Source: Escherichia phage RB69. From it: a stretch of 64,000 bases of DNA. Below are positions 10,811 through 47,183 of the stretch, piece by piece. Within the stretch, counting starts at the first letter, position 1. Every line of letters begins with the position of its first letter. The stretch lies in the sequence record NC_004928.1, one strand, 5' to 3'. The notes below the pieces were generated by a model that saw only the letters and a program-made list of their open reading frames with translations, was not told the origin of the DNA and searched no databases. The position numbers and the translations under genes are program-made.

Positions 10811-11623
10811 ATGATCAAAAGAACAATTTTGAAAGAAGCTCAGAATATCGAGACTTCAGTTGCTCTTAATAGTGTTTTCGAATCAGTAGAACTGTCTCCG
10901 GACGTTAAAGCTAATTTCAGCACTGTATTCGAAGCCACCGTTAAGCAGGAAGCAGTCAAACTGGCTGAATCTCATATCAAAGCCATCGCCGAAAAAGCCG
11001 AAGAAGAAGTTGAAAAGGCTAAAGAAGATGCTGAAGAGAAAGCTGATAAAAAATTGGCTGAACAAGCTTCTAAATTCCTGGACCATCTTGCAAAAGAATG
11101 GCTCGCAGAAAACCAAATCGCAGTTGATAAAGGCATTAAAGCTGATTTGTTCGAATCCATGCTTGGTGGTCTGAAAGAACTGTTTGTTGAACATAACGTT
11201 GTTGTTCCAGAAGAATCTGTAGATGTTGTAGCAGAAATGGAAGAAGAGCTGGCCGAACATAAAGAAGAAACCGCTCGTTTGTTCGAAGAAGTTACCAAAC
11301 GTGATGCATATATCAATTACGTTCAGCGTGAAACCGCTATTAATGAAAGCGTGAAAGACCTGACTGAATCTCAGAAAGAAAAAGTTATTGGCCTGGTTGA
11401 AGGTATGGATTATTCTGACGCATTTGGTACTAAGTTAACTGCTATTGTAGAAATGGTTAAAGGTTCTACTAAAGAAGAAGCCGCTATTACCGAAAGTATA
11501 AATACAGTTGACAATGACGCTGCCGGTCTTAATTTTGTTGCCGAAGCAGTTGACACTACCACAACTCAGGTAGAACAGAATTCTAATGTAAGTTTATATG
11601 CGAAAGTCGCATCTCGTTTCTAA
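10811..11623 (+). CDS. 22: Prohead core scaffold protein gp22
   Basis: 270 aa, acidic and coiled-coil rich; synteny. Confidence 0.9.
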   Translation: MIKRTILKEAQNIETSVALNSVFESVELSPDVKANFSTVFEATVKQEAVKLAESHIKAIAEKAEEEVEKAKEDAEEKADKKLAEQASKFLDHLAKEWLAENQIAVDKGIKADLFESMLGGLKELFVEHNVVVPEESVDVVAEMEEELAEHKEETARLFEEVTKRDAYINYVQRETAINESVKDLTESQKEKVIGLVEGMDYSDAFGTKLTAIVEMVKGSTKEEAAITESINTVDNDAAGLNFVAEAVDTTTTQVEQNSNVSLYAKVASRF

Positions 11624-11640: not shown

Positions 11641-13209
11641 ATGACTACTATCAAAACTAAAGCTCAGCTCGTAGACAAATGGAAAGAACTGCTGGAAGGT
11701 GAAGGCCTGCCGGAAATCGCTAATAGCAAGCAGGCTATTATCGCTAAAATCTTCGAAAACCAGGAAAAAGATTTCGAAGTATCCCCTGAATATAAAGACG
11801 AGAAAATCGCTCAGGCATTTGGTTCTTTCTTGACCGAAGCTGAAATTGGTGGTGACCACGGTTATAATGCTCAGAACATCGCAGCAGGTCAAACCTCTGG
11901 TGCAGTAACCCAGATTGGGCCGGCAGTTATGGGTATGGTTCGTCGTGCTATTCCTAATCTGATCGCTTTTGATATTTGTGGTGTTCAGCCTATGAACAGC
12001 CCTACCGGTCAGGTATTTGCTCTCCGTGCAGTATATGGTAAAGACCCTATCGCTGCTGGCGCTAAAGAAGCTTTCCATCCGATGTATGCTCCGGATGCAA
12101 TGTTCTCTGGTCAGGGCGCTGCTAAGAAATTCCCAGCGCTGGCTGCTAGCACACAAACTAAAGTAGGTGATATCTATACTCACTTCTTCCAGGAAACTGG
12201 TACTGTATATCTGCAAGCTTCTGCTCAAGTAACAATTAGTTCAAGTGCTGATGATGCAGCTAAATTAGATGCAGAAATTATCAAACAAATGGAAGCTGGC
12301 GCACTGGTAGAAATCGCTGAAGGTATGGCTACTTCTATCGCTGAACTTCAGGAAGGCTTCAATGGTTCTACCGACAACCCGTGGAACGAAATGGGCTTCC
12401 GTATCGACAAACAAGTTATTGAAGCTAAATCTCGTCAGCTGAAAGCAGCTTACTCCATCGAATTGGCACAAGACCTCCGTGCAGTACACGGTATGGATGC
12501 TGATGCTGAACTGAGCGGTATTCTTGCTACTGAAATTATGCTGGAAATCAACCGTGAAGTTGTTGACTGGATTAACTACTCCGCTCAGGTTGGTAAATCT
12601 GGTATGACTAATATCGTTGGTTCTAAAGCTGGTGTATTTGACTTCCAAGACCCGATTGATATTCGTGGTGCTCGTTGGGCCGGTGAAAGCTTTAAAGCTC
12701 TGTTGTTCCAGATTGATAAAGAAGCAGTTGAAATTGCTCGTCAAACCGGTCGTGGTGAAGGCAACTTTATTATCGCTTCCCGTAACGTAGTTAACGTACT
12801 GGCATCAGTCGATACTGGTATTTCTTACGCTGCACAGGGTCTGGCTTCTGGTTTTAATACCGACACTACTAAGTCTGTATTTGCCGGTGTACTTGGTGGT
12901 AAATACCGCGTATACATCGACCAGTATGCTAAACAGGATTACTTCACTGTTGGTTATAAAGGCGCTAACGAAATGGATGCAGGTATTTACTACGCTCCTT
13001 ACGTTGCACTTACCCCACTGCGTGGTTCCGATCCTAAGAACTTCCAGCCGGTAATGGGCTTTAAAACTCGTTATGGTATCGGTGTTAACCCGTTTGCTGA
13101 AAGTTCCCTGCAGGCTCCAGGTGCTCGCATCCAGTCCGGTATGCCGTCTATCCTGAACAGCCTTGGTAAGAACGCTTACTTCCGCCGTGTATATGTAAAA
13201 GGCATCTAA
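11641..13209 (+). CDS. 23: Major capsid protein gp23
   Basis: 522 aa; synteny and size as T4 gp23. Confidence 0.97.
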   Translation: MTTIKTKAQLVDKWKELLEGEGLPEIANSKQAIIAKIFENQEKDFEVSPEYKDEKIAQAFGSFLTEAEIGGDHGYNAQNIAAGQTSGAVTQIGPAVMGMVRRAIPNLIAFDICGVQPMNSPTGQVFALRAVYGKDPIAAGAKEAFHPMYAPDAMFSGQGAAKKFPALAASTQTKVGDIYTHFFQETGTVYLQASAQVTISSSADDAAKLDAEIIKQMEAGALVEIAEGMATSIAELQEGFNGSTDNPWNEMGFRIDKQVIEAKSRQLKAAYSIELAQDLRAVHGMDADAELSGILATEIMLEINREVVDWINYSAQVGKSGMTNIVGSKAGVFDFQDPIDIRGARWAGESFKALLFQIDKEAVEIARQTGRGEGNFIIASRNVVNVLASVDTGISYAAQGLASGFNTDTTKSVFAGVLGGKYRVYIDQYAKQDYFTVGYKGANEMDAGIYYAPYVALTPLRGSDPKNFQPVMGFKTRYGIGVNPFAESSLQAPGARIQSGMPSILNSLGKNAYFRRVYVKGI

Positions 13210-13233
13210 TCTTAATTGATTAAATCTTATTTT

Positions 13234-13258
13234 GGGAGACTTCGGTCTCCCATTTTTG
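13234..13258 (+). terminator. Rho-independent terminator after gene 23 (GGGAGAC-UUCG-GUCUCCC plus U-run)
   Basis: Perfect 7-bp stem, ttcg loop, then atttttgg. Confidence 0.8.
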
Positions 13259-13290
13259 GTTTTATTTCTGCGCAATTTCGATGTAAGTTT

Positions 13291-13531
13291 TCAAAATATT
13301 TTGCCAATTAGGCATACCTTCTGAACATATGCCGGAGAACCGTCTTTATTTTTGAATGATGCAAGTTTATCAGTGGCCCAATAACCTTTAGTTCGAGCTT
13401 CAGAATCAACTTTCATCCATACTTTGTTGAAGGCATTACCATTAACTTTTGCACCATATTTTTGTACTTTCGGTTACAGATCCAGCTTCCAGAACTTTTA
13501 CAGTATCTCGTAAGAAACGTGCTTTAGTCAT
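13291..13531 (-). pseudogene. Small early gene between 23 and 24, apparently disrupted by a +1 frameshift (about 79 aa if repaired)
   Basis: SD GGAG plus ATG at 13531; frame 1 MTKARFLRDTVKVLEAGSVTESTKIWCKS-stop; the adjacent frame continues with T4-like codons (VQKYGAKVNGNAFNKVWMKVDSEARTKGYWATDKLASFKNKDGSPAYVQKVCLIGKIF) to a stop at 13291. Confidence 0.45.
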
Positions 13532-13559
13532 TTTGTTTACTCCTCTGCAGCTGATAAGT

Positions 13560-13591
13560 CGATAGTATCACATACCAAATACGTTGTAAAC
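13560..13591 (-). promoter_or_regulatory. Putative sigma70-type early promoter (GTTTAC -35, about 17-nt spacer, TACTAT-like -10) for the small minus-strand gene
   Basis: Read directly on the reverse complement. Confidence 0.4.
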
Positions 13592-13597
13592 AATCTT

Positions 13598-13605
13598 TAT
13601 AAATA
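13598..13605 (+). promoter_or_regulatory. Late promoter TATAAATA upstream of gene 24
   Basis: Exact TATAAATA about 28 nt upstream of the gene 24 ATG. Confidence 0.6.
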
Positions 13606-13632
13606 ATCTATATCACATAAGGGAAAAATGCA

Positions 13633-14916
13633 ATGAGTAAAATCCAAAAATTATCGCGTGAATCTACAACGTCTACCAGCAACTCAATTGGTCGCCCAAA
13701 TCTCGTTGCTTTGACTCGCGCTACGACTAAATTAATATATTCTGACATCGTAGCAACACAAAGAACTAATCAACCTGTTGCTGCTTTTTATGGTATCAAA
13801 TATCTTAACCCAGATAACGAATTCACATTTAAAACTGGTGCTACTTATGCTGGCGAAGCTGGATATGTAGACCGAGAAAAAATTACTGAGCTCACAGAAG
13901 AATCAAAAGCCACACTAAATAAAGGCGATTTTTTCAAATATAATAATATCGTCTATAAAGTGTTAGAAGATACACCATTTGCAGATATTCAAGAAAGTGA
14001 TCTAGAATTAGCTCTTCAGATTGCAGTCGTTCATTTAAAGGTACGGTTGTTTTCAGATGCAGCGGTAACAAGCAAATTTGAAAGCTCTGGTAGCGAAATT
14101 TCTGATGCAAGATTCCAGATTAATAAATGGCAAACTTCAGTCAAATCTCGTAAACTTAAAACCGGCCTCACGGTTGAATTAGCGCAAGATTTGGAAGCGA
14201 ATGGATTTGATGCCCCTAACTTCTTAGAAGATTTGCTTGCAACTGAAATGGCTGATGAAATTAATAAAGATATTCTTCAGTCTTTAATTACTGTATCGAA
14301 ACGTTATAAAGTTACTGGAATTACTGACACCGGATTTATTGACTTGAGCTATGCATCCGCTCCAGAAGCAGGTCGTTCGTTATATCGAATGGTGTGTGAA
14401 ATGGTATCACACATTCAAAAAGAGTCAACTTATACTGCGACGTTTTGTGTAGCTTCAGCTCGTGCAGCTGCTATTCTTGCTGCTTCCGGTTGGTTAAAAC
14501 ATAAACCAGAAGATGATAAGTATCTTTCACAAAATGCTTACGGGTTCTTAGCTAATGGTTTACCGCTTTATTGCGATACTAACAGTCCATTAGATTATGT
14601 GATCGTTGGCGTAGTAGAAAATATCGGTGAAAAAGAAATTGTTGGATCAATTTTCTATGCTCCGTATACAGAAGGTCTCGACTTAGATGACCCGGAACAT
14701 GTTGGTGCATTTAAAGTTGTAGTTGATCCAGAAAGCTTGCAACCGTCTATTGGTTTATTGGTTAGATACGCTTTATCAGCAAATCCTTACACAGTAGCAA
14801 AAGACGAAAAAGAAGCGAGAATAATTGATGGCGGGGACATGGATAAAATGGCAGGACGTTCAGACTTGTCTGTTTTACTCGGTGTTAAATTGCCTAAAAT
14901 TATTATAGATGAATAA
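13633..14916 (+). CDS. 24: Capsid vertex protein gp24
   Basis: 427 aa; near-identical to recalled T4 gp24. Confidence 0.95.
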   Translation: MSKIQKLSRESTTSTSNSIGRPNLVALTRATTKLIYSDIVATQRTNQPVAAFYGIKYLNPDNEFTFKTGATYAGEAGYVDREKITELTEESKATLNKGDFFKYNNIVYKVLEDTPFADIQESDLELALQIAVVHLKVRLFSDAAVTSKFESSGSEISDARFQINKWQTSVKSRKLKTGLTVELAQDLEANGFDAPNFLEDLLATEMADEINKDILQSLITVSKRYKVTGITDTGFIDLSYASAPEAGRSLYRMVCEMVSHIQKESTYTATFCVASARAAAILAASGWLKHKPEDDKYLSQNAYGFLANGLPLYCDTNSPLDYVIVGVVENIGEKEIVGSIFYAPYTEGLDLDDPEHVGAFKVVVDPESLQPSIGLLVRYALSANPYTVAKDEKEARIIDGGDMDKMAGRSDLSVLLGVKLPKIIIDE

Positions 14917-14949: not shown

Positions 14950-15948
14950 TTATGATACTAATTCAATCCATGCAGGACGCAGAACATCTTGCACCATTCG
15001 GACTAATTCTTTCTTAACAAGATTCGGATTATCAGATGTTGTTAATACAATACCTTCACGAGAAGTTTCTTCCAGAATATCTTGAACAGTCAATCCCATC
15101 ACTTTGCCAAAATCTTTTGGCGTTACAGTCCCAATCTTAGAAATAACATTATTAACACGATTTAATGTAACATAACAAGCTAGAACATCAAGCAAGTTTT
15201 TGTCAATTTCGGTTAATGGAACCTGAGTTTTAATAGGCTTATCAGACTTTTTCTTTTCACTGAATTTAGAGTTCTTGCACTTAATCGCTACACGAGTACC
15301 GTTTGGCAGCCATTTAGGGAAACAAGGCTTCAGAACATAACCTTCTGCAGTATTATCACCAATAACATTAGCATCAAATACACAATTATTTGCTTCTACA
15401 AGGTCTTCTGACGCAGTAGCATTATAAGCGGCTAAAACGGAATCAAGGTCATTTGGAATCATGATAAGAGAATCAAATGTTCCACGACCAAGCATTGGTG
15501 CCATTTTAAAACCGAATTCATTACAGAAATCTTGCATTTCGTAATCGGTCAAATACGTATTATCACCACTTTCTGTATTGATAAGGATATCGAACACATA
15601 AAAATCTTTTTCACCGTAGTCAACACCTTTCTGGATTCCACCACCAGCGAATTCACCGAATACTTGATATGATACGGCTCGAGCTGTGTACATGAATTTC
15701 TGAACGGTTTTAATAGCTTTATCATACTTCTTGAGTACGATTTCATAACCATAAAAATCTTCTGCTGGAAGAATAGGGCCTGTGCGCTTGGCGCATGTGA
15801 CGTTGTCACGTTCAATTATTAACGAGAAGTTGGTCCCATGGATTTTCTCACGTGCTACCCAAACACCAGTAGTCAAACCATTAGTGTAGAGTTTTTCAAT
15901 AAACTTAGAGTTGTAGTGGTTTTCAAGACTGCTGTATTTCTTAAACAT
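14950..15948 (-). CDS. rnlB: RNA ligase 2 (Rnl2)
   Basis: 332 aa; N-terminus [20 protein letters not shown] and active-site region EKIHGTNFS match recalled T4 Rnl2. Confidence 0.93.
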
Positions 15949-22669: not shown

Positions 22670-23425
22670 ATGGCTAATATAATTCGTTGTAAATTACCGG
22701 ATGGTGTTCATCGTTTTAAGCCGTTCACTGTGGCGGATTATAGAGACTTTTTACTAGTTAGAAATGATATCGAACATCGTTCGCCGCAAGAACAAAAAGA
22801 AATAATTGCCGATCTGATTGATGATGATTATTTTGGCGAGTACCCTAAAACATGGCAACCATTTATATTCCTGCAAGTTTTTGCAGGCTCTATAGGCAAA
22901 ACAAAAGTTCCCGTTATTTTCACTTGCCCTAAATGCTCTAAAGAAAAAACTGCACCATTTGAGATATATCAAAAAGAACTAGTCGAACCTGAACTTGATG
23001 TTGCTGGTATAAAAATACGTTTTTCTTTCCCTGAAAAGTTTTATGACAATAAAGCATTAATGATAAGTGAAAACATAAAAGAAATATATTATAATGATGA
23101 ATGGTACCCATGGAATGATTTGACTGAAGAGAACCAAATCCAAGTAATAGAAGCAATAGACATTGACTCGCTCGAGAAGGTTATTGCTTCTATGAATCCT
23201 ATTAATTTGACCCTTAGATTAGGTTGTTGTGAACGTCATGTTAAAACATATACTGATATCTTAGAGGTTTTTAAATTGTTAGTTAACCCTGATGAGATTT
23301 TTACATTTTATCAGATAAACCATTCACTAGTAAAGAGTCAATACACATTGGATTCTATTATGCAAATGATTCCTGTTGAACGTGGTATTGCTTTAACATT
23401 AGTAGAAAAGGACCATAAAAAATGA
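22670..23425 (+). CDS. 51: Baseplate hub assembly catalyst gp51
   Basis: 251 aa; position and size as T4 gp51. Confidence 0.88.
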
Positions 23426-29308: not shown

Positions 29309-31396
29309 CTATCCTTGGACAAATTTAAACGGAACTGATTCTAAATCCATTAAAGATGCTAACAATTTCAAACCTTTAGGTGCGCTAGTTTTTTCTACAA
29401 ATGAAGAGAACGATACCGGCTCATCTGATTCGATTTCACCTGTCATAGCAACCACCTCACCTGTTTCCATGAGAACATCACCATCATAAATGACAGCTTC
29501 ATCTAACTGGTCTGAGGACATGACTTCAGCTTGAATAAATTTAAGGTTGGATTCTAAACCTGCACCAGTGTCAGATGACGCATCTGTAATTTTATTTATC
29601 TGCAAGAGAATGCCTCTAGGCAAAATAATTTCTTGCTCATTAGGGTGATTACTCAACTGTCCTGGATAAATCACGTTAACTTTATGAGCACCATCAATAG
29701 CCCATCCAACGTTAACACGGATTTGTTCTGGTGCATGCATAGCTGTTCTTACTTGACTAGGAGAAATAGTAACACCTTCGTCATTATTGTCAATGTTAAG
29801 CTCTTTGCGAACGTTCTTCAGGAGCAAGTCCAAGGGCAACGTTCTCTTTAAACCCACCGAAAATAATAGGAGCTTGTGAAGTGGAAACATAGTTTCTGAA
29901 GTAGAATACCTTATTTTTAACCATTGCTTCGTAAATAGGCATTCTGATAGACTGAGCTCTATATAACGTTTGTCCTTCAGGTAACGGTCTCCATTTAAAA
30001 ACGCCGAATCAAGACCATCAATAGCGCGTTTAACTTCATCTTCATCTGCAACATCGTAAAAATCTGGTTTATAACGACCTAACAACATATTATTGATATC
30101 GGTATACGCAGAAGAGGCATATTCACGAATAGCTCGTTTTTCAGCAACAGAGTATTGTTTAGGGTCCCGATTCATTGTTATATTAAAGGTGCCTCTAGCC
30201 GATTCTCGTGCATAAGTATACATCACATTAGACAAGAACGCTGATTTACGTTGTTTCCAAGTTTTTTCAGATACTTCAGCTAAAACGTCGTCGGCCAGTT
30301 GGAAATTATCACGTCTAAAATCTTCAAACCATTCGTCTTTAATAGAGTCTGCAATCTCATTTGCAGCTTCAACAAAAGCAGCTAATGCTTTAACAGATGT
30401 TGTTTTTTCAGTTTTAATTTTCTTAGCAAACTTTTCTAAAGTTGGCTTAATAACACCACCATAAGAAACTTCATCAGCAAATTTAAAGGATTCATCAATA
30501 CGATTATAAATCTTATTTTCGATATCAGCAACTAAAGTGCCTTTTGCTGTGGACGATGCTTGGGCTAGTACTATTTCATATGCTTCAGGAAGTAATTCGG
30601 CTGTAGCCGGGCCACTAACTTCTTTAGCAGAATTTTCGTATTTCTGGAATAACTCACCTTCTTGGCGGTCCGCTTCTAAAGATTGACTTGCTGCAATAGC
30701 ACGACGAGAAATTTTAGTACGAGCAATAACAGGCTTATCTTTACGTTTTTCTTCTACAGCAGCAATAGAACCAGCGATAGCCGTTTCTTTGGTGACCTTT
30801 TCGCCAGTCTTTTTACTCACATAAACTTCGCCAACATCAGAATCTACTTTCGTGTACAACTCTGTGTTAATGTTAGGGATGCCTTTAATATCTTCAATGT
30901 TGGCATTTTTACGAACCATCATCACATAGGTGTGTTTACCTGTGAATTGATACATTGCCGACAATACTTTAAAACGACCACCGGTTTTAGTAGAAACTAA
31001 ACGAGCAAGAAGAGTTTGAAGCTGCTGTCCACGTCCTTTCAATTTCTTGGTAGGGAATCGGAACAGAACTGCATCCATACGAAGAGCTTTAACCTGTTCA
31101 TATACTGTATTGAAAATGGTGTTGATTGCATCAATAGGAGCAGGACCAAGGCCATTTTTCAATTCAGCGAGATTACCCTTTTCAGATAGACTCATAATAA
31201 CAACATGAGCGTATTTGTCGCCAAGTTTAACTTGTTTTACAGCATCACCTTCGGAAAGGTAAGAGAATAAGCGAACTACGATGTTTGTATCGATATCACC
31301 AATTTTCCAGACTTGTGGAACTTTAGCTTTAGGGTTCAAATTGACGACAGGAAGACTGCCTTCAGATTCAAACACTTCATTTAATTGTTCAGACAT
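29309..31396 (-). CDS. alt: Alt ADP-ribosyltransferase; the ORF is open (695 codons) but the catalytic R/STS region appears out of frame
   Basis: Position next to gene 30 as in T4; ExE-like NEQEIILPRG in frame; LYR and YVSTS motifs present only in an alternative frame across about 29800-30008. Confidence 0.8.
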   Translation of the reverse strand: MSEQLNEVFESEGSLPVVNLNPKAKVPQVWKIGDIDTNIVVRLFSYLSEGDAVKQVKLGDKYAHVVIMSLSEKGNLAELKNGLGPAPIDAINTIFNTVYEQVKALRMDAVLFRFPTKKLKGRGQQLQTLLARLVSTKTGGRFKVLSAMYQFTGKHTYVMMVRKNANIEDIKGIPNINTELYTKVDSDVGEVYVSKKTGEKVTKETAIAGSIAAVEEKRKDKPVIARTKISRRAIAASQSLEADRQEGELFQKYENSAKEVSGPATAELLPEAYEIVLAQASSTAKGTLVADIENKIYNRIDESFKFADEVSYGGVIKPTLEKFAKKIKTEKTTSVKALAAFVEAANEIADSIKDEWFEDFRRDNFQLADDVLAEVSEKTWKQRKSAFLSNVMYTYARESARGTFNITMNRDPKQYSVAEKRAIREYASSAYTDINNMLLGRYKPDFYDVADEDEVKRAIDGLDSAFLNGDRYLKDKRYIELSLSECLFTKQWLKIRYSTSETMFPLHKLLLFSVGLKRTLPLDLLLKNVRKELNIDNNDEGVTISPSQVRTAMHAPEQIRVNVGWAIDGAHKVNVIYPGQLSNHPNEQEIILPRGILLQINKITDASSDTGAGLESNLKFIQAEVMSSDQLDEAVIYDGDVLMETGEVVAMTGEIESDEPVSFSSFVEKTSAPKGLKLLASLMDLESVPFKFVQG

Positions 31397-34266: not shown

Positions 34267-34680
34267 TCAAGTTAGTATTGTATCATCTTTTGTTAGACCA
34301 CTAGCCATGCTGTGCTTCAAAATTTTTCCTTTAGAGGCTTGTAAGGCATCACGAAACCCCTTGTTTTGGATCGCGGCTTCAAAATATGCATTTGTGTATA
34401 ATTCTTTCCACGCTTCGGAGTATCTTGAAAATGGAACTCCTAACCAGAAGAGAGTCCCACGGTCCTGAGCTCTTGCATAAGACCTTCCTGCTTGCTGTGC
34501 AGCCAATCCAGACAACCCAAATATACTATGTTGTTGTTCAACATTTTTCACCTTACATCCTTGGAGAAATCCTTCAAGACCTCCGAATTGAATACCATCC
34601 ATAACAAAAGGCCATTGAGCAAAGTTACTTAATGCACATGACGGCCACTTGAAATTACTTCTAATCTCTAACTCAGGCAT
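34267..34680 (-). CDS. NADAR/YbiA-family (DUF1768) protein (30.3-like)
   Basis: SNFAQWP...DGIQF...E.F.Q pattern matches recalled E. coli YbiA (SNFAAWPIKVDGKTWPTSEHYFQ); start taken at MPELEIR. Confidence 0.65.
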   Translation of the reverse strand: MPELEIRSNFKWPSCALSNFAQWPFVMDGIQFGGLEGFLQGCKVKNVEQQHSIFGLSGLAAQQAGRSYARAQDRGTLFWLGVPFSRYSEAWKELYTNAYFEAAIQNKGFRDALQASKGKILKHSMASGLTKDDTILT

Positions 34681-37665: not shown

Positions 37666-37741
37666 ATTATTCACCACAAAAGTTTCGGATTTGTTCCCAA
37701 TTCAGAGAACGAAGATTATTACCGAGAAGTACTGAATTACT

Positions 37742-38251
37742 TCAATACCAGCTTGGTTTTAGAATGTCTGCCCAATTTTCAGGAGATCGGTTGTATAATT
37801 CTGCGTATACAACCTTTTTAATACCTGACTGCGTAATAGCTTTAGTGCAATCAGGACACGGAGAAAGCGTAGTATATAACGTAGCGCCTTCAATAGAATT
37901 ACCTTTACGAGCTGCAAACAAAATTGCATTCAATTCCGCATGGATTTCGTTATTAGCAGACCATGCACTATGAGCGGCCCGATGTTCTTTAGCCAAAACA
38001 AAATTATCTGCCCGTCCAAATGCTGTAGTGCCTTCTTTATGTCCAGCAACGATGGCCGGGCTTGATTTATTCTTCAACCAACCATTTTCGGATGCATGTT
38101 CGCAACAGTTAACGCCACCTGCGGGTGAACCATTATATCCAGTAGAGATAATGCGTCCATCTTTTTCAATGACCGCACCAACTTTCCATGAACAACATTT
38201 TGATTCTTGAGAAATCAAATAAGCAATTTGAAGATATGTGCTAGCTTTCAT
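37742..38251 (-). CDS. cd: dCMP deaminase, apparently truncated at the C-terminus by 3' frameshifts
   Basis: Zinc-binding motifs HAELNAI and PCPDC; N-terminus matches recalled T4 Cd; ORF is 169 aa versus about 193; remaining C-terminus readable in shifted frames to 37667. Confidence 0.85.
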   Translation of the reverse strand: MKASTYLQIAYLISQESKCCSWKVGAVIEKDGRIISTGYNGSPAGGVNCCEHASENGWLKNKSSPAIVAGHKEGTTAFGRADNFVLAKEHRAAHSAWSANNEIHAELNAILFAARKGNSIEGATLYTTLSPCPDCTKAITQSGIKKVVYAELYNRSPENWADILKPSWY

Positions 38252-38502
38252 TATAGTGTTCCGTATACGCGAGTTGCTTCAACTAAACCGTCACTGCCTA
38301 ATTTAAGGCTAGTAATCTGGTCACCATCTTTAGGATTAACGATTATGAGAAAAGAACGTGGAGATTCTTGAATAACTCGTAATGTTGCATCTTGGAAACG
38401 TTCAGACACCTTATTGATGAGTGCTTGAGCAAATTCTTGTACTTTAATCTGAAATTCGTGTACTGTAATTGGGGTTTCACTTAGCCTTTCGATTTCCCTC
38501 AT
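38251..38502 (-). CDS. Hypothetical protein (83 aa; cd.x)
   Basis: ORF. Confidence 0.5.
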   Translation of the reverse strand: MREIERLSETPITVHEFQIKVQEFAQALINKVSERFQDATLRVIQESPRSFLIIVNPKDGDQITSLKLGSDGLVEATRVYGTL

Positions 38503-39229: not shown

Positions 39230-40315
<1,086 letters not shown>

Positions 40316-44927: not shown

Positions 44928-47183
44928 TTAAAGCTTACAAGCAGAGCAATCTTCAGCTTTAGGTGTTTCTAATTCATAGTCATCTGTACCTGACCCATCA
45001 CGAGTGTTATGATAGTAGAGATTTTTTCCGCCAAAGTACCAGAAGTAAAGCAGATCGTCAAGCATTACCGACATTGGCACTTTACCTTTCTCAAATACAG
45101 CAGGGTCATAATAAGTATTAGCAGAAGCAGATTGGCACACCCATTTCAACATGATAGCAACTTGGGTCAAATAAGGTTTATTACCTTTCTTAGCAAGTTT
45201 CCACGCGTAGTCGTAAAGACTCATGTTATGTTCGATATTAGGAACAACCTGTCGGAAGTTGCCTTCTTTAGATTCTTTAATACTTACAGGTCCACGAGGT
45301 GGTTCTATACCATTTGTGCTATTTGAGACTTGACTGCTTGATTCACATGGCATGAGAGCACTAAGTGTACTGTTACGAATTCCATGTTCTTTTGAGTTCA
45401 GCTCGAAGTTCTTCCAGTCACAGACGTAGTTCGGGGCTGCGATTTGGTCAATCTTTTTATTGTACCAGTCGATAGGTAATTCGCCTCTAGACCATTTAGT
45501 GTCTGAATAATACTCACAAGGTCCTTTTTCTTTGGCGAGTTTGATTGAAGCTTTGATAAGGCCATATTGCAATCTCTCGAACAATTCATGAGTCAAATAG
45601 TTAGCGTCTTCATATGAAGCAAAGTTAGAAGCTAACCATGCAGCATAGTTCGTCACACCGACACCGAGATTTCGACGCTTTTTAGCTTTTAAAGCTTCTG
45701 GAACCGGATAATCTTGATAGTCTAACAGGTTATCAAGTGCACGTACTTGTACTTCAGCAAGTTCATTAATTTTATCTTGGTCTTGCCAATCAAATTTATC
45801 TAATACAAAAGCAGATAACGTGCATAAACCAATTTCAGCATCAGGACCATTCACATCATTAGTTGGAATAGCGATTTCACAACATAAGTTACTCTGACGA
45901 ATTGGAGCTTTTTCACGAATAAACGGAGTGTAGTTATTCGTGTTATCAACAAACTGTGGATAAATTCGAGCAGTACCAGAACGTTCAGTCATGAACAATT
46001 CAAAGAGTTCTAGTGCTTTGATTCTTTTCTTTCTGATTGTTGGGTCTTTTTCAGCTTTCTCATAAAGCTCACGGAATTTATCTTGATCTTCAAAGAATGA
46101 GTAATATAGTTCGCCTGACATTTCGTGAGGGCTAAATAAAGTAATATAATCATTTTTACCAAGGCGTTCCATCATGAGGTCATTAATCTGAATTCCGTAG
46201 TCCATATGTCGAATACGGTTTTCATCCACGCCTTTGTTATTTTTCAGAACTAATAGGTTCTCTACTTCTAAGTGCCACATTGGATAATACGCTGTAGCAG
46301 CACCACCACGAATACCACCTTGAGAACAAGATTTTACTGCAGTTTGGAAATGTTTCCAGAATGGAATAACACCCGTATGTCGAACTTCACCCATACCGAT
46401 CTTAGAACCTTCTGCACGAAGCATACCAACGTTGATACCGATACCAGCTCGTTTAGAAATATATTCAATAATTGATGCTGAAGTTTTGTTAATAGATTTT
46501 AACGAATCACCGGCTTCAATAACTACACAACTAGAGAACTGGCGAGTTGGAGTACGAGCACCTGCCATAATTGGGGTTGGCAATGAAACTTGATGAGTAG
46601 AAACGGCATCATAAAAACGAATAATATGTTTCAAACGGTCATGAGTTTCGTCTTGGTGTAAGGCCATGCCAATAGCCATGATAGCAAACTGGGGAGTTTC
46701 ATAAATCTTACCAGTTGTTTTATCTTTAACCAGGTATTTTTCTTTAAGCTGCATAGCACCAGCATAAGTCAGATCAAAATCTCGCTCATGTTTAATCCGA
46801 GAATCAAGATAAATGATTTCTTCTGCAGAATATCTAGACAACAACTCAGGATCATATTTGCCTTCATTAACACAATAAGAAATATGGTCGATAAAAGCAG
46901 GCGGTTCAAACTGCCCATATACATCTTTACGAAGTGCAAACATTAGCCCTTTGGCGGCGACATACTGATAATCAGGTTCTTCGACAGAAATCGAGTTAGC
47001 TGCAACTTTAATACAAATCTTCTGGATATCTTTGGTGCTCATCCCGTCGACAAGATGGGTCTTAATTTCTTCGTACAATTCATATGGGTCGATTTGTGTT
47101 CCTTCACATTGCCAAGTTAAGACTTGAATAATTTTCTGTGCATCAAAATTTTGGGATACACCACTGCTCTTAGTTACTTGCAT
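44928..47183 (-). CDS. nrdA: Ribonucleotide reductase large subunit NrdA
   Basis: 751 aa; active-site region SNLCCEIA, C-terminal redox cysteines (CSACKL); alignable with recalled E. coli NrdA. Confidence 0.95.
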   Translation of the reverse strand: MQVTKSSGVSQNFDAQKIIQVLTWQCEGTQIDPYELYEEIKTHLVDGMSTKDIQKICIKVAANSISVEEPDYQYVAAKGLMFALRKDVYGQFEPPAFIDHISYCVNEGKYDPELLSRYSAEEIIYLDSRIKHERDFDLTYAGAMQLKEKYLVKDKTTGKIYETPQFAIMAIGMALHQDETHDRLKHIIRFYDAVSTHQVSLPTPIMAGARTPTRQFSSCVVIEAGDSLKSINKTSASIIEYISKRAGIGINVGMLRAEGSKIGMGEVRHTGVIPFWKHFQTAVKSCSQGGIRGGAATAYYPMWHLEVENLLVLKNNKGVDENRIRHMDYGIQINDLMMERLGKNDYITLFSPHEMSGELYYSFFEDQDKFRELYEKAEKDPTIRKKRIKALELFELFMTERSGTARIYPQFVDNTNNYTPFIREKAPIRQSNLCCEIAIPTNDVNGPDAEIGLCTLSAFVLDKFDWQDQDKINELAEVQVRALDNLLDYQDYPVPEALKAKKRRNLGVGVTNYAAWLASNFASYEDANYLTHELFERLQYGLIKASIKLAKEKGPCEYYSDTKWSRGELPIDWYNKKIDQIAAPNYVCDWKNFELNSKEHGIRNSTLSALMPCESSSQVSNSTNGIEPPRGPVSIKESKEGNFRQVVPNIEHNMSLYDYAWKLAKKGNKPYLTQVAIMLKWVCQSASANTYYDPAVFEKGKVPMSVMLDDLLYFWYFGGKNLYYHNTRDGSGTDDYELETPKAEDCSACKL

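What the first reader, a model, noticed from the sequence alone, without database searches (positions are those of the whole stretch)
13291..13531. Frameshifted small early gene in the gene 23-24 intergenic region
The roughly 420-bp spacer between capsid genes 23 and 24 holds a minus-strand gene with an SD, an upstream GTTTAC-type early promoter and T4-like codon usage, but its frame is broken after about 24 codons (MTKARFLRDTVKVLEAGSVTE / VQKYGAKVNGNAFNKVWMKVDSEARTKGYWATDKLASFKNKDGSPAYVQKVCLIGKIF). The ORF track missed it. In T4 this spacer is a known site for mobile or accessory inserts, so an antisense early gene inside the late capsid operon is notable.
Basis: seen in the sequence. Interest (0 to 1): 0.5.

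Follow-up and report, generated by a model that had tools for sequence, protein, structure and literature searches.

The report
Small early gene, probably mis-sequenced
The broken gene between capsid genes 23 and 24 is a real, conserved 89-residue early gene of RB69-like phages, but its frameshifts occur only in the 2003 RB69 reference sequence and are most likely errors in that record, so the finding is ordinary.

Summary
The window is phage RB69, genome positions 96001-160000. The two minus-strand fragments are exactly the annotated RB69ORF189c (29 aa) and RB69ORF188c (41 aa). Together they correspond to one 89-aa gene (window 13262-13531). That gene is intact in about 118 Mosigvirus genomes, lies in the same slot in JS98- and VR7-like phages, belongs to phrog_6003, and is under purifying selection. 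The early promoter, gene 23 terminator and gene 24 late promoter were all published in 2006.

The window copy has two frameshifts, not one: +1 inside a unique 20-nt garbled patch and -1 at 13322.

De novo assemblies from eight SRA runs are identical to the window over about 41 kb, apart from a few tiny clusters. One cluster holds all 18 differences in 13321-13749, and there the gene is intact. Other clusters are also frameshift pairs that hit conserved residues (gp22, an Alt-like gene, dCMP deaminase). A published case shows another RB69 gene was split by a record error.

Verdict: a real, already annotated gene of unknown function. The disruption is most likely a record artefact (about 0.75). 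The alternative is a lesion specific to the sequenced stock.

The parts
13262..13531 (-). Full extent of the small early gene. It is 270 nt and homologous to the intact 89-aa ORF of Mosigvirus relatives. In the window it is interrupted by a +1 and a -1 frameshift.
   Evidence: Alignments with G53, mogra, O157tp3, G2469, JS09, RPN187 and the Logan contigs. G53 translation. phrog_6003 at E=2.1e-45. dN/dS 0.04-0.16 among intact homologues.
13442..13531 (-). 5' fragment, identical to RB69ORF189c (29 aa, NP_861879.1). Residues 1-15 are family-like apart from L11V. The patch-encoded residues follow, then an out-of-frame tail and a TAA stop.
   Evidence: ORF list. Exact-sequence look-up.
13291..13416 (-). 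Middle fragment, identical to RB69ORF188c (41 aa, NP_861878.1). It starts at the internal Met39 of the family protein and ends in a 9-residue out-of-frame tail created by the second frameshift.
   Evidence: ORF list. Exact-sequence look-up. The JS09 annotation cites RB69ORF188c as the homologue of its intact gene.
13464..13483 (-). Record-private 20-nt patch GGATCTGTAACCGAAAGTAC, against GAAGCAGTTAAGTTAGTAG in relatives. It carries 8 substitutions plus 1 inserted base, which is the +1 frameshift. It replaces the invariant L21 and conserved V22.
   Evidence: The patch is absent from 50,697 phage records (best 86% over 71 nt), from IMG/VR, from JGI metagenomes and from GTDB genomes. No second copy exists in the window.
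13321..13322 (-). Site of the -1 frameshift. The window has GTTC-A-GAAGG where the closest relatives have GTTCAAGAAGG. It sits at the centre of the imperfect palindrome GGCATATGTTC/GAAGGTATGCC.
   Evidence: the closest relatives show a clean one-A deletion. (inverted repeat I5).
13540..13545 (-). Shine-Dalgarno sequence GAGGAG, 8 nt upstream of the ATG.
   Evidence: Read directly from the sequence. Conserved in all relatives.
13555..13605 (-). T4-type early promoter. The -35 element GTTTAC is at 13591-13586 and the -10 element TACTAT, preceded by TG, is at 13567-13562. This is the published RB69 Pe:109605.
   Evidence: Consensus scan. Nolan et al. 2006, Additional file 3, score 29.9. The 96000 coordinate offset was verified on 12 published promoters.
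13233..13252 (+). Intrinsic terminator of gene 23 (hairpin plus T-tract on the + strand). It lies 10 nt beyond the small gene's stop codon. On the minus strand it lacks a U-tract.
   Evidence: Published TransTerm terminator 109234-109251, labelled '23-><-RB69ORF188c'.
13598..13605 (+). Late promoter core TATAAATA for gene 24. It overlaps the upstream A/T-rich part of the divergent early promoter. The published Pl:109573 corresponds to window 13573-13615.
   Evidence: Sequence. Nolan et al. 2006, Additional file 5.
13321..13749 (.). A 429-nt stretch holding all 18 differences (16 substitutions, 2 indels) between the window and RB69-identical de novo assemblies in this neighbourhood. It covers the small gene, its 5'UTR and promoter, the gene 24 ribosome-binding region and gp24 codon 8.
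   Evidence: At every one of these positions the window is the odd one out against all relatives examined.

Best explanation
The locus is a real, conserved, protein-coding early gene. It encodes an 89-aa basic cytoplasmic protein (predicted pI 9.6). It is transcribed antisense to the late capsid genes from a sigma-70/T4-early promoter that diverges from the gene 24 late promoter, and it is translated from a GAGGAG Shine-Dalgarno sequence.

Its apparent disruption in this window consists of a +1 frameshift inside a garbled 20-nt patch, a -1 frameshift 150 nt downstream and scattered substitutions. This disruption is a peculiarity of the 2003 Sanger reference sequence of phage RB69. It most probably reflects sequencing, cloning or PCR errors in a poorly covered, hard-to-clone early-gene stretch, not biology. 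RB69 as it exists in current stocks encodes the intact protein MTKARFLRDTLKVLEAEAVKLVEKYGAKVNGNAFNKVWMKVDSEARAKGYWATDKLASFKNKDGSPAYVQEGMPNWQNILKTYIEIAQK.

Shown here: the identity of the window, homology, synteny, purifying selection, the promoter, Shine-Dalgarno sequence and terminator, and the fact that the lesions are private to the record.

Inferred: that the lesions are record errors rather than mutations of the sequenced stock. Also inferred is that the protein is a non-structural early accessory or host-interaction factor, possibly deleterious when cloned in E. coli. Its biochemical function is unknown and its fold (three helices plus a beta-hairpin) matches nothing solved.
For: 1. The window is RB69. 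The 41-aa and 29-aa fragments are exactly NP_861878.1 and NP_861879.1. Twelve published RB69 early promoters land in register with an offset of 96000.

2. The gene is real.
- It is intact at 89 aa in about 118 Mosigvirus records, with >=95% amino-acid identity to the G53 copy.
- Syntenic homologues sit between genes 23 and 24 in JS98, VR7 and metagenomic relatives.
- The intact protein hits phrog_6003 at E=2e-45.
- dN/dS is 0.04-0.16 with saturated dS.
- The AlphaFold2 model is confident, pLDDT 88.7.

3. The lesions are private to the record.
- Logan contigs from SRR16629520/23/25/27, SRR16634588 and SRR29299745/47/48 are identical to the window over 1641-25948. The exceptions are a +1/-1 pair in gene 22, a 3-nt repeat indel, and 18 differences confined to 13321-13749.
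- In those contigs the gene is intact and equals the Mosigvirus consensus.
- Natural relatives differ by about 2.5% throughout (549 differences in 21 kb for L032).

4. Record-private states replace residues conserved across genera.
- gp22 reads KEQL in T4, JS98 and the reassembly but KRTI in the record. gp24 L8 is S in the record.
- About 56 codons of the Alt-like gene are out of frame in the record. The cd ORF is 169 aa in the record against 193 aa in the reassembly.

5. Precedent and mechanism.
- Thomas et al. 2018 re-sequenced RB69 and showed that C-29116 in the GenBank entry is an error that split ORF053c and ORF052c (PMC6024577).
- Nolan et al. 2006 state that novel-ORF regions were under-represented in the shotgun plasmid libraries and were found only by PCR gap closure (PMC1524935).

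6. The 20-nt patch exists nowhere else.
Against: - I could not see SRA metadata, raw reads or the original traces. That the Logan contigs are RB69 stocks is therefore inferred from 100% identity over tens of kb, not documented.
- A dense patch of 8 substitutions in 20 nt is not a textbook base-calling error.
- Outside the patch, 6 of the 8 differences are transitions, 5 of them A:T to G:C. That resembles either natural divergence or Taq errors.
- Divergent mosaic patches of similar density exist between RB69 and G53 in gp23 and rnlB. A recombination tract from an unsampled donor cannot be excluded.
- All Logan contigs break at window positions 13542-13554, which is unexplained.
Confidence: 0.75

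Rival explanations
1. Genuine pseudogene in the sequenced RB69 stock. The stock sequenced in 2003 really carried a mutated tract of about 430 bp that inactivated a dispensable early gene. The tract arose by recombination with an unsampled divergent phage, or by a local error-prone repair event. Other RB69 stocks keep the ancestral intact gene.
For: - The lesions are in the deposited sequence.
- About 4% divergence over 429 nt is in the range of inter-Mosigvirus divergence, and most differences outside the patch are transitions.
- Dense divergent patches occur naturally between Mosigviruses.
- Other family members appear independently disrupted, which suggests the gene is dispensable. Examples are mogra (-1 in the A-run, split into two CDS), P0003, P0008, P0018 and P0019.
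Against: - All 18 states are private to the record among more than 130 relatives, and the patch is found in no database.
- The flanking 24 kb shows zero ordinary point differences from the reassemblies.
- The same record carries similar paired-indel clusters in essential or conserved genes (gp22, Alt-like, cd), which a viable stock is unlikely to have accumulated.
- One RB69 record frameshift has been shown experimentally to be an error.
Confidence: 0.18
2. Recoding. The gene is expressed as a full-length protein from the sequence as given, through a programmed +1 ribosomal frameshift or hop near 13465-13475 and a -1 shift near 13322.
For: The +1 and -1 lesions cancel, so the gene length (270 nt) and the C-terminal frame are preserved.
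Against: - By inspection of the sequence, there is no slippery heptamer, no shift-prone codon or stop context and no stimulatory Shine-Dalgarno sequence at either site.
- The +1 shift would have to occur within three codons (ACC GAA AGT) that offer no re-pairing.
- Even after recoding, the patch would replace the invariant L21.
- No relative needs recoding.
- Independent assemblies of the same phage simply lack the lesions.
Confidence: 0.02
3. Two separate functional mini-genes, as annotated in GenBank (RB69ORF189c of 29 aa and RB69ORF188c of 41 aa).
For: Both are open reading frames with ATG starts and are annotated in NC_004928.
Against: - Both are singleton sequences found only in the RB69 record.
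- ORF188c starts at an internal Met of the family protein, has no Shine-Dalgarno sequence and ends in an out-of-frame tail.
- In the AlphaFold2 model, neither fragment could form the three-helix plus hairpin fold.
- All relatives encode one 89-aa protein.
Confidence: 0.03

Closest known systems
phrog_6003 family of hypothetical proteins (e.g. G53 QBO65322.1, JS09 YP_009037593.1, JS98 orf173 AAU29301.2, VR7 ORF190c ADR32565.1)
   Same: The position is the same (between genes 23 and 24), as are the strand, the length (87-93 aa) and the promoter and Shine-Dalgarno arrangement. The window is 95% identical in DNA to the Mosigvirus copies. The reassembled RB69 protein is 100% identical to the G53 protein.
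   Different: The window copy, as deposited, is not an open 89-aa frame. It has +1 and -1 frameshifts and a private 20-nt patch that removes the invariant L21 and conserved V22.
RB69 ORF053c/ORF052c, a gene split by a single-base error (C-29116) in the RB69 GenBank entry (Thomas et al. 2018, PMC6024577)
   Same: Same genome record. In both cases two adjacent short 'c'-strand ORFs correspond to one longer gene in relatives, and re-sequencing gives the intact gene (here).
   Different: That case was one extra base and was confirmed by targeted PCR, cloning and sequencing. Here there are two indels and 16 substitutions over 429 nt. The re-sequencing evidence comes from public de novo assemblies whose provenance I could not check.
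T4 segD, a GIY-YIG homing endonuclease gene in the gene 23-24 spacer
   Same: It occupies the same intergenic slot on the same (antisense, early-type) strand, between the gene 23 terminator and the gene 24 late promoter.
   Different: There is no sequence or domain relationship. The RB69-type gene is 89 aa with no GIY-YIG or other nuclease domain. It is vertically conserved in three genera, not sporadically distributed.

Membership tests
phrog_6003 small early protein family (Mosigvirus, Dhakavirus, Gaprivervirus) | Significant full-length sequence match to the family profile | tested here: met
   The intact orthologue, identical to the reassembled RB69 protein, hits phrog_6003 at E=2.1e-45 over residues 1-89. 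The window DNA is 95% identical to the orthologues.
phrog_6003 small early protein family (Mosigvirus, Dhakavirus, Gaprivervirus) | Conserved position and orientation: between genes 23 and 24, antisense to them | tested here: met
   G53, mogra, O157tp3, JM17, G2469, JS09, RPN187, JS98, VR7 and the metagenomic contigs L019, L021, L025 and L032 all show this arrangement.
phrog_6003 small early protein family (Mosigvirus, Dhakavirus, Gaprivervirus) | Uninterrupted ORF of about 87-93 aa retaining the invariant residues (M1, K3, F6, L21, N30-G31-N32-A33, N35, A45, W51, Q70) | tested here: not met
   The window as deposited has a stop after 29 codons, two frameshifts and no L21. The feature is met in de novo assemblies of the same phage.
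T4-type early promoter | GTTTAC at -35, a spacer of about 17 nt, a TAnnnT -10 element with upstream TG/GT, an A/T-rich upstream region, and correct orientation 5' of an ORF | tested here: met
   The scan gives TTTACA, 17 nt, TACTAT, with TG present. The site is listed as Pe:109605, score 29.9, by Nolan et al. 2006 and is in register with 11 other RB69 early promoters. Actual transcription was not tested.
Genuine pseudogene (biological gene decay) | The disabling lesions are present in the organism itself and are reproducible in independent sequencing | tested here: not met
   Eight SRA-run assemblies, identical to the window over about 41 kb apart from small clusters, have the intact gene. No contig on record encodes the 41-aa fragment. 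Caveat: the provenance of the runs could not be verified.
Programmed ribosomal frameshift or recoding site | A slippery sequence or shift-prone codon with a stimulator at the shift site, conserved among relatives | tested here: not met
   No such motif is present at 13465-13475 or at 13322 (by inspection). Relatives are in a single frame.
Mobile insert or homing endonuclease gene (segD-like) | A nuclease domain (GIY-YIG, HNH or LAGLIDADG) and sporadic distribution | tested here: not met
   No Pfam domain scores above its cut-off. No NCBIfam match was found. The gene is present in essentially all Mosigvirus, Dhakavirus and Gaprivervirus genomes found.

The most novel reading that the evidence does not exclude
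The lesions are real in the sequenced stock and form part of a pattern. This conserved small early gene would be repeatedly inactivated in independent isolates: RB69, mogra, 310Ecol104PP and several metagenomic fragments. The reason would be that its product is toxic or is sensed by a host defence, so loss-of-function alleles are selected on some hosts or during cloning. The gene would then be a candidate defence trigger or host-takeover factor. The RB69 patch would be the scar of a complex multi-nucleotide mutational event.
Probability: 0.1. Interest if true: 0.45.

Novelty: already known. Interest (0 to 1): 0.12.

Why it matters
Biologically it matters little. The gene, its promoter and its terminator are already annotated, and an antisense early gene in the 23-24 spacer is the norm in RB69-like, JS98-like and VR7-like phages.

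The practical value is curation. RB69ORF188c and RB69ORF189c should be merged into one 89-aa gene. The widely used RB69 reference (NC_004928) appears to carry several more clustered frameshift discrepancies beyond the published C-29116 error. In this window they affect gp22 (N-terminus), gp24 (L8S), an Alt-like ADP-ribosyltransferase and dCMP deaminase. Anyone using RB69 protein sequences from the reference for structural work, proteomics or comparative genomics would benefit from a corrected sequence.

The 89-aa protein itself remains an orphan-fold early protein of unknown function.

Tried and rejected
- **Function by homology:** Pfam gave only DUF4859 at 17.9 bits, below the 22.6 cut-off. 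NCBIfam gave nothing meaningful. A profile search of PDB sequences gave a best E of 0.026, judged spurious.
- **Exhaustive HMM search of 1.84 billion representatives:** Only 9 hits were found. Two are large Big_2 or Filamin-type repeat proteins. hhalign gives 1.4% probability for one of them, so I rejected them as summed repeat noise.
- **Donor for the 20-nt patch:** None was found in the window with up to 3 mismatches, nor in IMG/VR, JGI metagenomes or GTDB genomes. The patch is not an inversion of the consensus.
- **Quasi-palindrome-templated origin of the -1 lesion:** The site is at the centre of an imperfect palindrome. However, the closest relatives show that the neighbouring C>T change is an inherited polymorphism and that the lesion is a plain loss of one A. 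I dropped the templated-mutation idea.
- **Recombination from a more divergent allele:** Codon-level comparison with P0004, P0005, P0006, JS98 and VR7 shows no matching allele.
- **Literature:** No paper mentions RB69ORF188c or RB69ORF189c. No RB69 transcriptome was found.
- **Repeat as the cause of the Logan contig breaks at 13542-13554:** No repeat was found in the window.

Full report
**What is in the sequence.**
The window encodes gp23 (11641..13209, +), gp24 (13633..14916, +) and an RnlB-like ligase (14950..15948, -). The 423-bp spacer between genes 23 and 24 contains two ORFs on the minus strand. One runs 13531..13442 (29 aa, MTKARFLRDTVKVLEAGSVTESTKIWCKS). The other runs 13416..13291 in the +1 frame (41 aa).

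Upstream of the ATG lie GAGGAG (13545-13540) and a sigma-70/T4-early-type promoter. The promoter has GTTTAC at 13591-13586, a 17-nt spacer counted from TTTACA, and TG-TACTAT at 13567-13562. On the + strand there is an intrinsic terminator for gene 23 at 13233-13252 and TATAAATA at 13598-13605 for gene 24.

**Identity of the window.**
The two fragments are exact matches to RB69ORF188c (NP_861878.1) and RB69ORF189c (NP_861879.1). Each is a singleton found only in phage RB69. With an offset of 96000, twelve RB69 early promoters published by Nolan et al. 2006 (PMC1524935, Additional file 3) fall in register on GTTTAC. The window is therefore RB69 positions 96001-160000.

The same supplements already list three features of this spacer:
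- The early promoter Pe:109605, at window 13555-13605, score 29.9.
- The gene 24 late promoter Pl:109573.
- The terminator '23-><-RB69ORF188c' at 109234-109251.

RB69 itself is absent from the phage collection searched.

**The gene is real and conserved.**
- The spacer matches 135 phage records at 90-95.5% identity.
- In G53 the same stretch is one 89-aa CDS on the minus strand.
- tblastn finds full-length copies at >=95% identity in 118 Mosigvirus records. It finds 30-38% identical copies in 120 other records, including JS98-like and VR7-like phages. In JS98 and VR7 the copy lies between genes 23 and 24 on the antisense strand.
- More distant metagenomic members (P0005, P0006, P0016) share this synteny.
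- The protein is phrog_6003, of unknown function, at E=2e-45.
- Pairwise dN/dS among intact members is 0.04-0.16 with saturated dS.
- In T4 the slot is occupied by segD on the same strand.

**Anatomy of the lesion.**
Alignment to relatives shows two frameshifts, not one.

The first is a +1 insertion inside a 20-nt patch (13483-13464). The window reads GGATCTGTAACCGAAAGTAC where relatives read GAAGCAGTTAAGTTAGTAG. The patch carries eight substitutions and removes the family-invariant L21 and conserved V22.

The second is a -1 deletion at 13322. The closest relatives show it to be a clean loss of one A from GTTCAAGAAGG.

The two lesions cancel, so the gene is still 270 nt and its true stop is TAA 13264-13262. 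The patch occurs nowhere else. Neither site has features of programmed frameshifting.

**The decisive comparison.**
I looked up contigs that encode exactly the window's gp23, RnlB-like and DNA-ligase-domain (PF01068) proteins. This retrieved de novo Logan assemblies from SRR16629520/23/25/27, SRR16634588 and SRR29299745/47/48.

L033 and L039 together cover window 1641-25948 and are base-for-base identical to it, with three exceptions:
- A +1/-1 pair 8 nt apart in gene 22 codons 4-6 (10820-10826).
- 18 differences, all within 13321-13749.
- A 3-nt TGA-repeat indel at 22819-22821.

Natural relatives differ by about 2.5% throughout. L032, for example, shows 549 differences in 21 kb.

In these assemblies the small gene is intact, and its product is identical to the G53 protein. 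At every discrepant site the window is the odd one out against all relatives. Several of the window's states replace residues conserved as far as T4 and JS98: gp22 KEQL becomes KRTI, and gp24 L8 becomes S.

Extending the comparison to 21640-43133 shows more clusters of the same kind:
- A -1/+1 pair puts about 56 codons of the Alt-like ADP-ribosyltransferase out of frame.
- The cd ORF is 169 aa in the window against 193 aa in the reassembly.

The SRR29299748 contig has its own divergent patch at 34323-34510. It is therefore a second, slightly different source, and it still agrees against the record.

**Interpretation.**
The distribution is zero ordinary point differences over tens of kb, with dense private clusters rich in paired indels that hit conserved residues. 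A viable phage lineage is not expected to accumulate that pattern.

There is a direct precedent. Thomas et al. 2018 re-sequenced RB69 and showed that base C-29116 of the GenBank entry is an error that had split one gene into ORF053c and ORF052c (PMC6024577). Nolan et al. 2006 also report that novel-ORF regions were under-represented in the shotgun plasmid libraries and were recovered only by PCR gap closure, presumably because they are deleterious in E. coli. This spacer holds a strong early promoter and a novel ORF, which fits that description.

I therefore conclude, at about 0.75, that the frameshifted state is an artefact of the reference record. A real lesion specific to the sequenced stock remains possible, at about 0.18. 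Three observations keep it open:
- The dense substitution patch is not a typical base-calling error.
- Mosaic patches occur naturally between Mosigviruses.
- I could not verify the provenance of the SRA runs.

**Function.**
The intact protein is 10.1 kDa with a predicted pI of 9.6. AlphaFold2 models it confidently as helix 3-25, helix 31-48, a beta-hairpin at 56-70 and helix 76-88. No fold or sequence search gives an informative match. The exhaustive profile search finds only a handful of relatives, plus repeat-protein noise.

From its early promoter and by analogy with other small T4 early proteins, the most likely role is a non-essential accessory or host-interaction factor. That is inference only.

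**Verdict.**
The "frameshifted gene" itself is not a notable biological feature. It is an already annotated gene pair that should be merged, and the break most likely lies in the record, not the phage.

Noticed in passing
window 10820-10826 (gene 22, codons 4-6): The window has ATCAAAAGAACAATTTTG where all relatives and the RB69-identical reassemblies have ATCAAAGAACAACTTTTG. This is a +1/-1 pair 8 nt apart, giving gp22 MIKRTILK instead of MIKEQLLK. KEQL is conserved in T4 and JS98. It is probably another record error.
   Followed up: partly
window 13655 and 13749 (gene 24): gp24 residue 8 is S in the window but L in T4, JS98 and the reassemblies. One further base difference lies at 13749. This explains why the exact gp24 product is not on record in the assembly index.
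   Followed up: partly
window 29813-29982 (Alt-like ADP-ribosyltransferase gene, 29309..31396, minus strand): A -1/+1 indel pair 169 nt apart, plus two substitutions relative to the reassembly. About 56 codons (aa 472-533) are out of frame in the window without creating a stop.
   Followed up: partly
window 37723-37792 (dCMP deaminase gene): Clustered indels totalling 3 nt, plus substitutions. The window ORF from the same start is 169 aa, against 193 aa in the reassembly.
   Followed up: partly
window 34270-34273, 34527-34530, 36079, 36603, 38410-38496 and 39709-39949: Further small clusters of differences between the window and the SRR16629527 assembly, including single-base indels, in the early novel-ORF region. 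The differences at 34527-34530, 36079 and 36603 are also seen against the SRR29299748 contig. Their effects on ORFs were not examined.
   Followed up: no
L043 (SRR29299748), corresponding to window 34323-34510: This RB69-like contig has about 25 substitutions in 190 nt relative to both the window and the SRR16629527 contig. It is either a natural mosaic patch or a different RB69-like strain.
   Followed up: no
window 13542-13554 (ends of L031, L033, L034, L036, L037, L039 and L041): Logan contigs from several independent runs all break at the same place, in the 5'UTR of the small gene, with only about 13 nt of overlap. No repeat in the window explains this. It may reflect allele heterogeneity in the samples.
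   Followed up: partly
window 22819-22821: A 3-nt length difference within a TGATGATGA repeat between the window and the reassembly. It is in frame.
   Followed up: no
L002 (phage mogra), 1053-1321; proteins P0003, P0008, P0018 and P0019: Other members of the family appear disrupted in their own records. Mogra has lost one A from the GAAAAATATGG run and is annotated as two CDS. A Dhakavirus (310Ecol104PP) has a 64-aa truncated copy. These are either recurrent loss or recurrent homopolymer sequencing errors.
   Followed up: partly
L003, L004, L019 and L021 (JS98, VR7 and metagenomic relatives): Gene 24 is tandemly duplicated (24a and 24b) in JS98-like and VR7-like phages, next to the small gene. 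RB69-like phages have a single copy.
   Followed up: no
window ~12138, ~12227 (gene 23) and 15675-15700 (rnlB-like gene): Dense in-frame patches of 10-11 differences per 25 nt between RB69 and G53. These are natural mosaic divergence of the kind that complicates calling the 20-nt patch an error.
   Followed up: no
window 44928..47183 (minus strand, 751-aa ORF): The exact product is not on record in the assembly index, although neighbouring RB69 proteins are. This may be another discrepancy between the record and the reassemblies.
   Followed up: no
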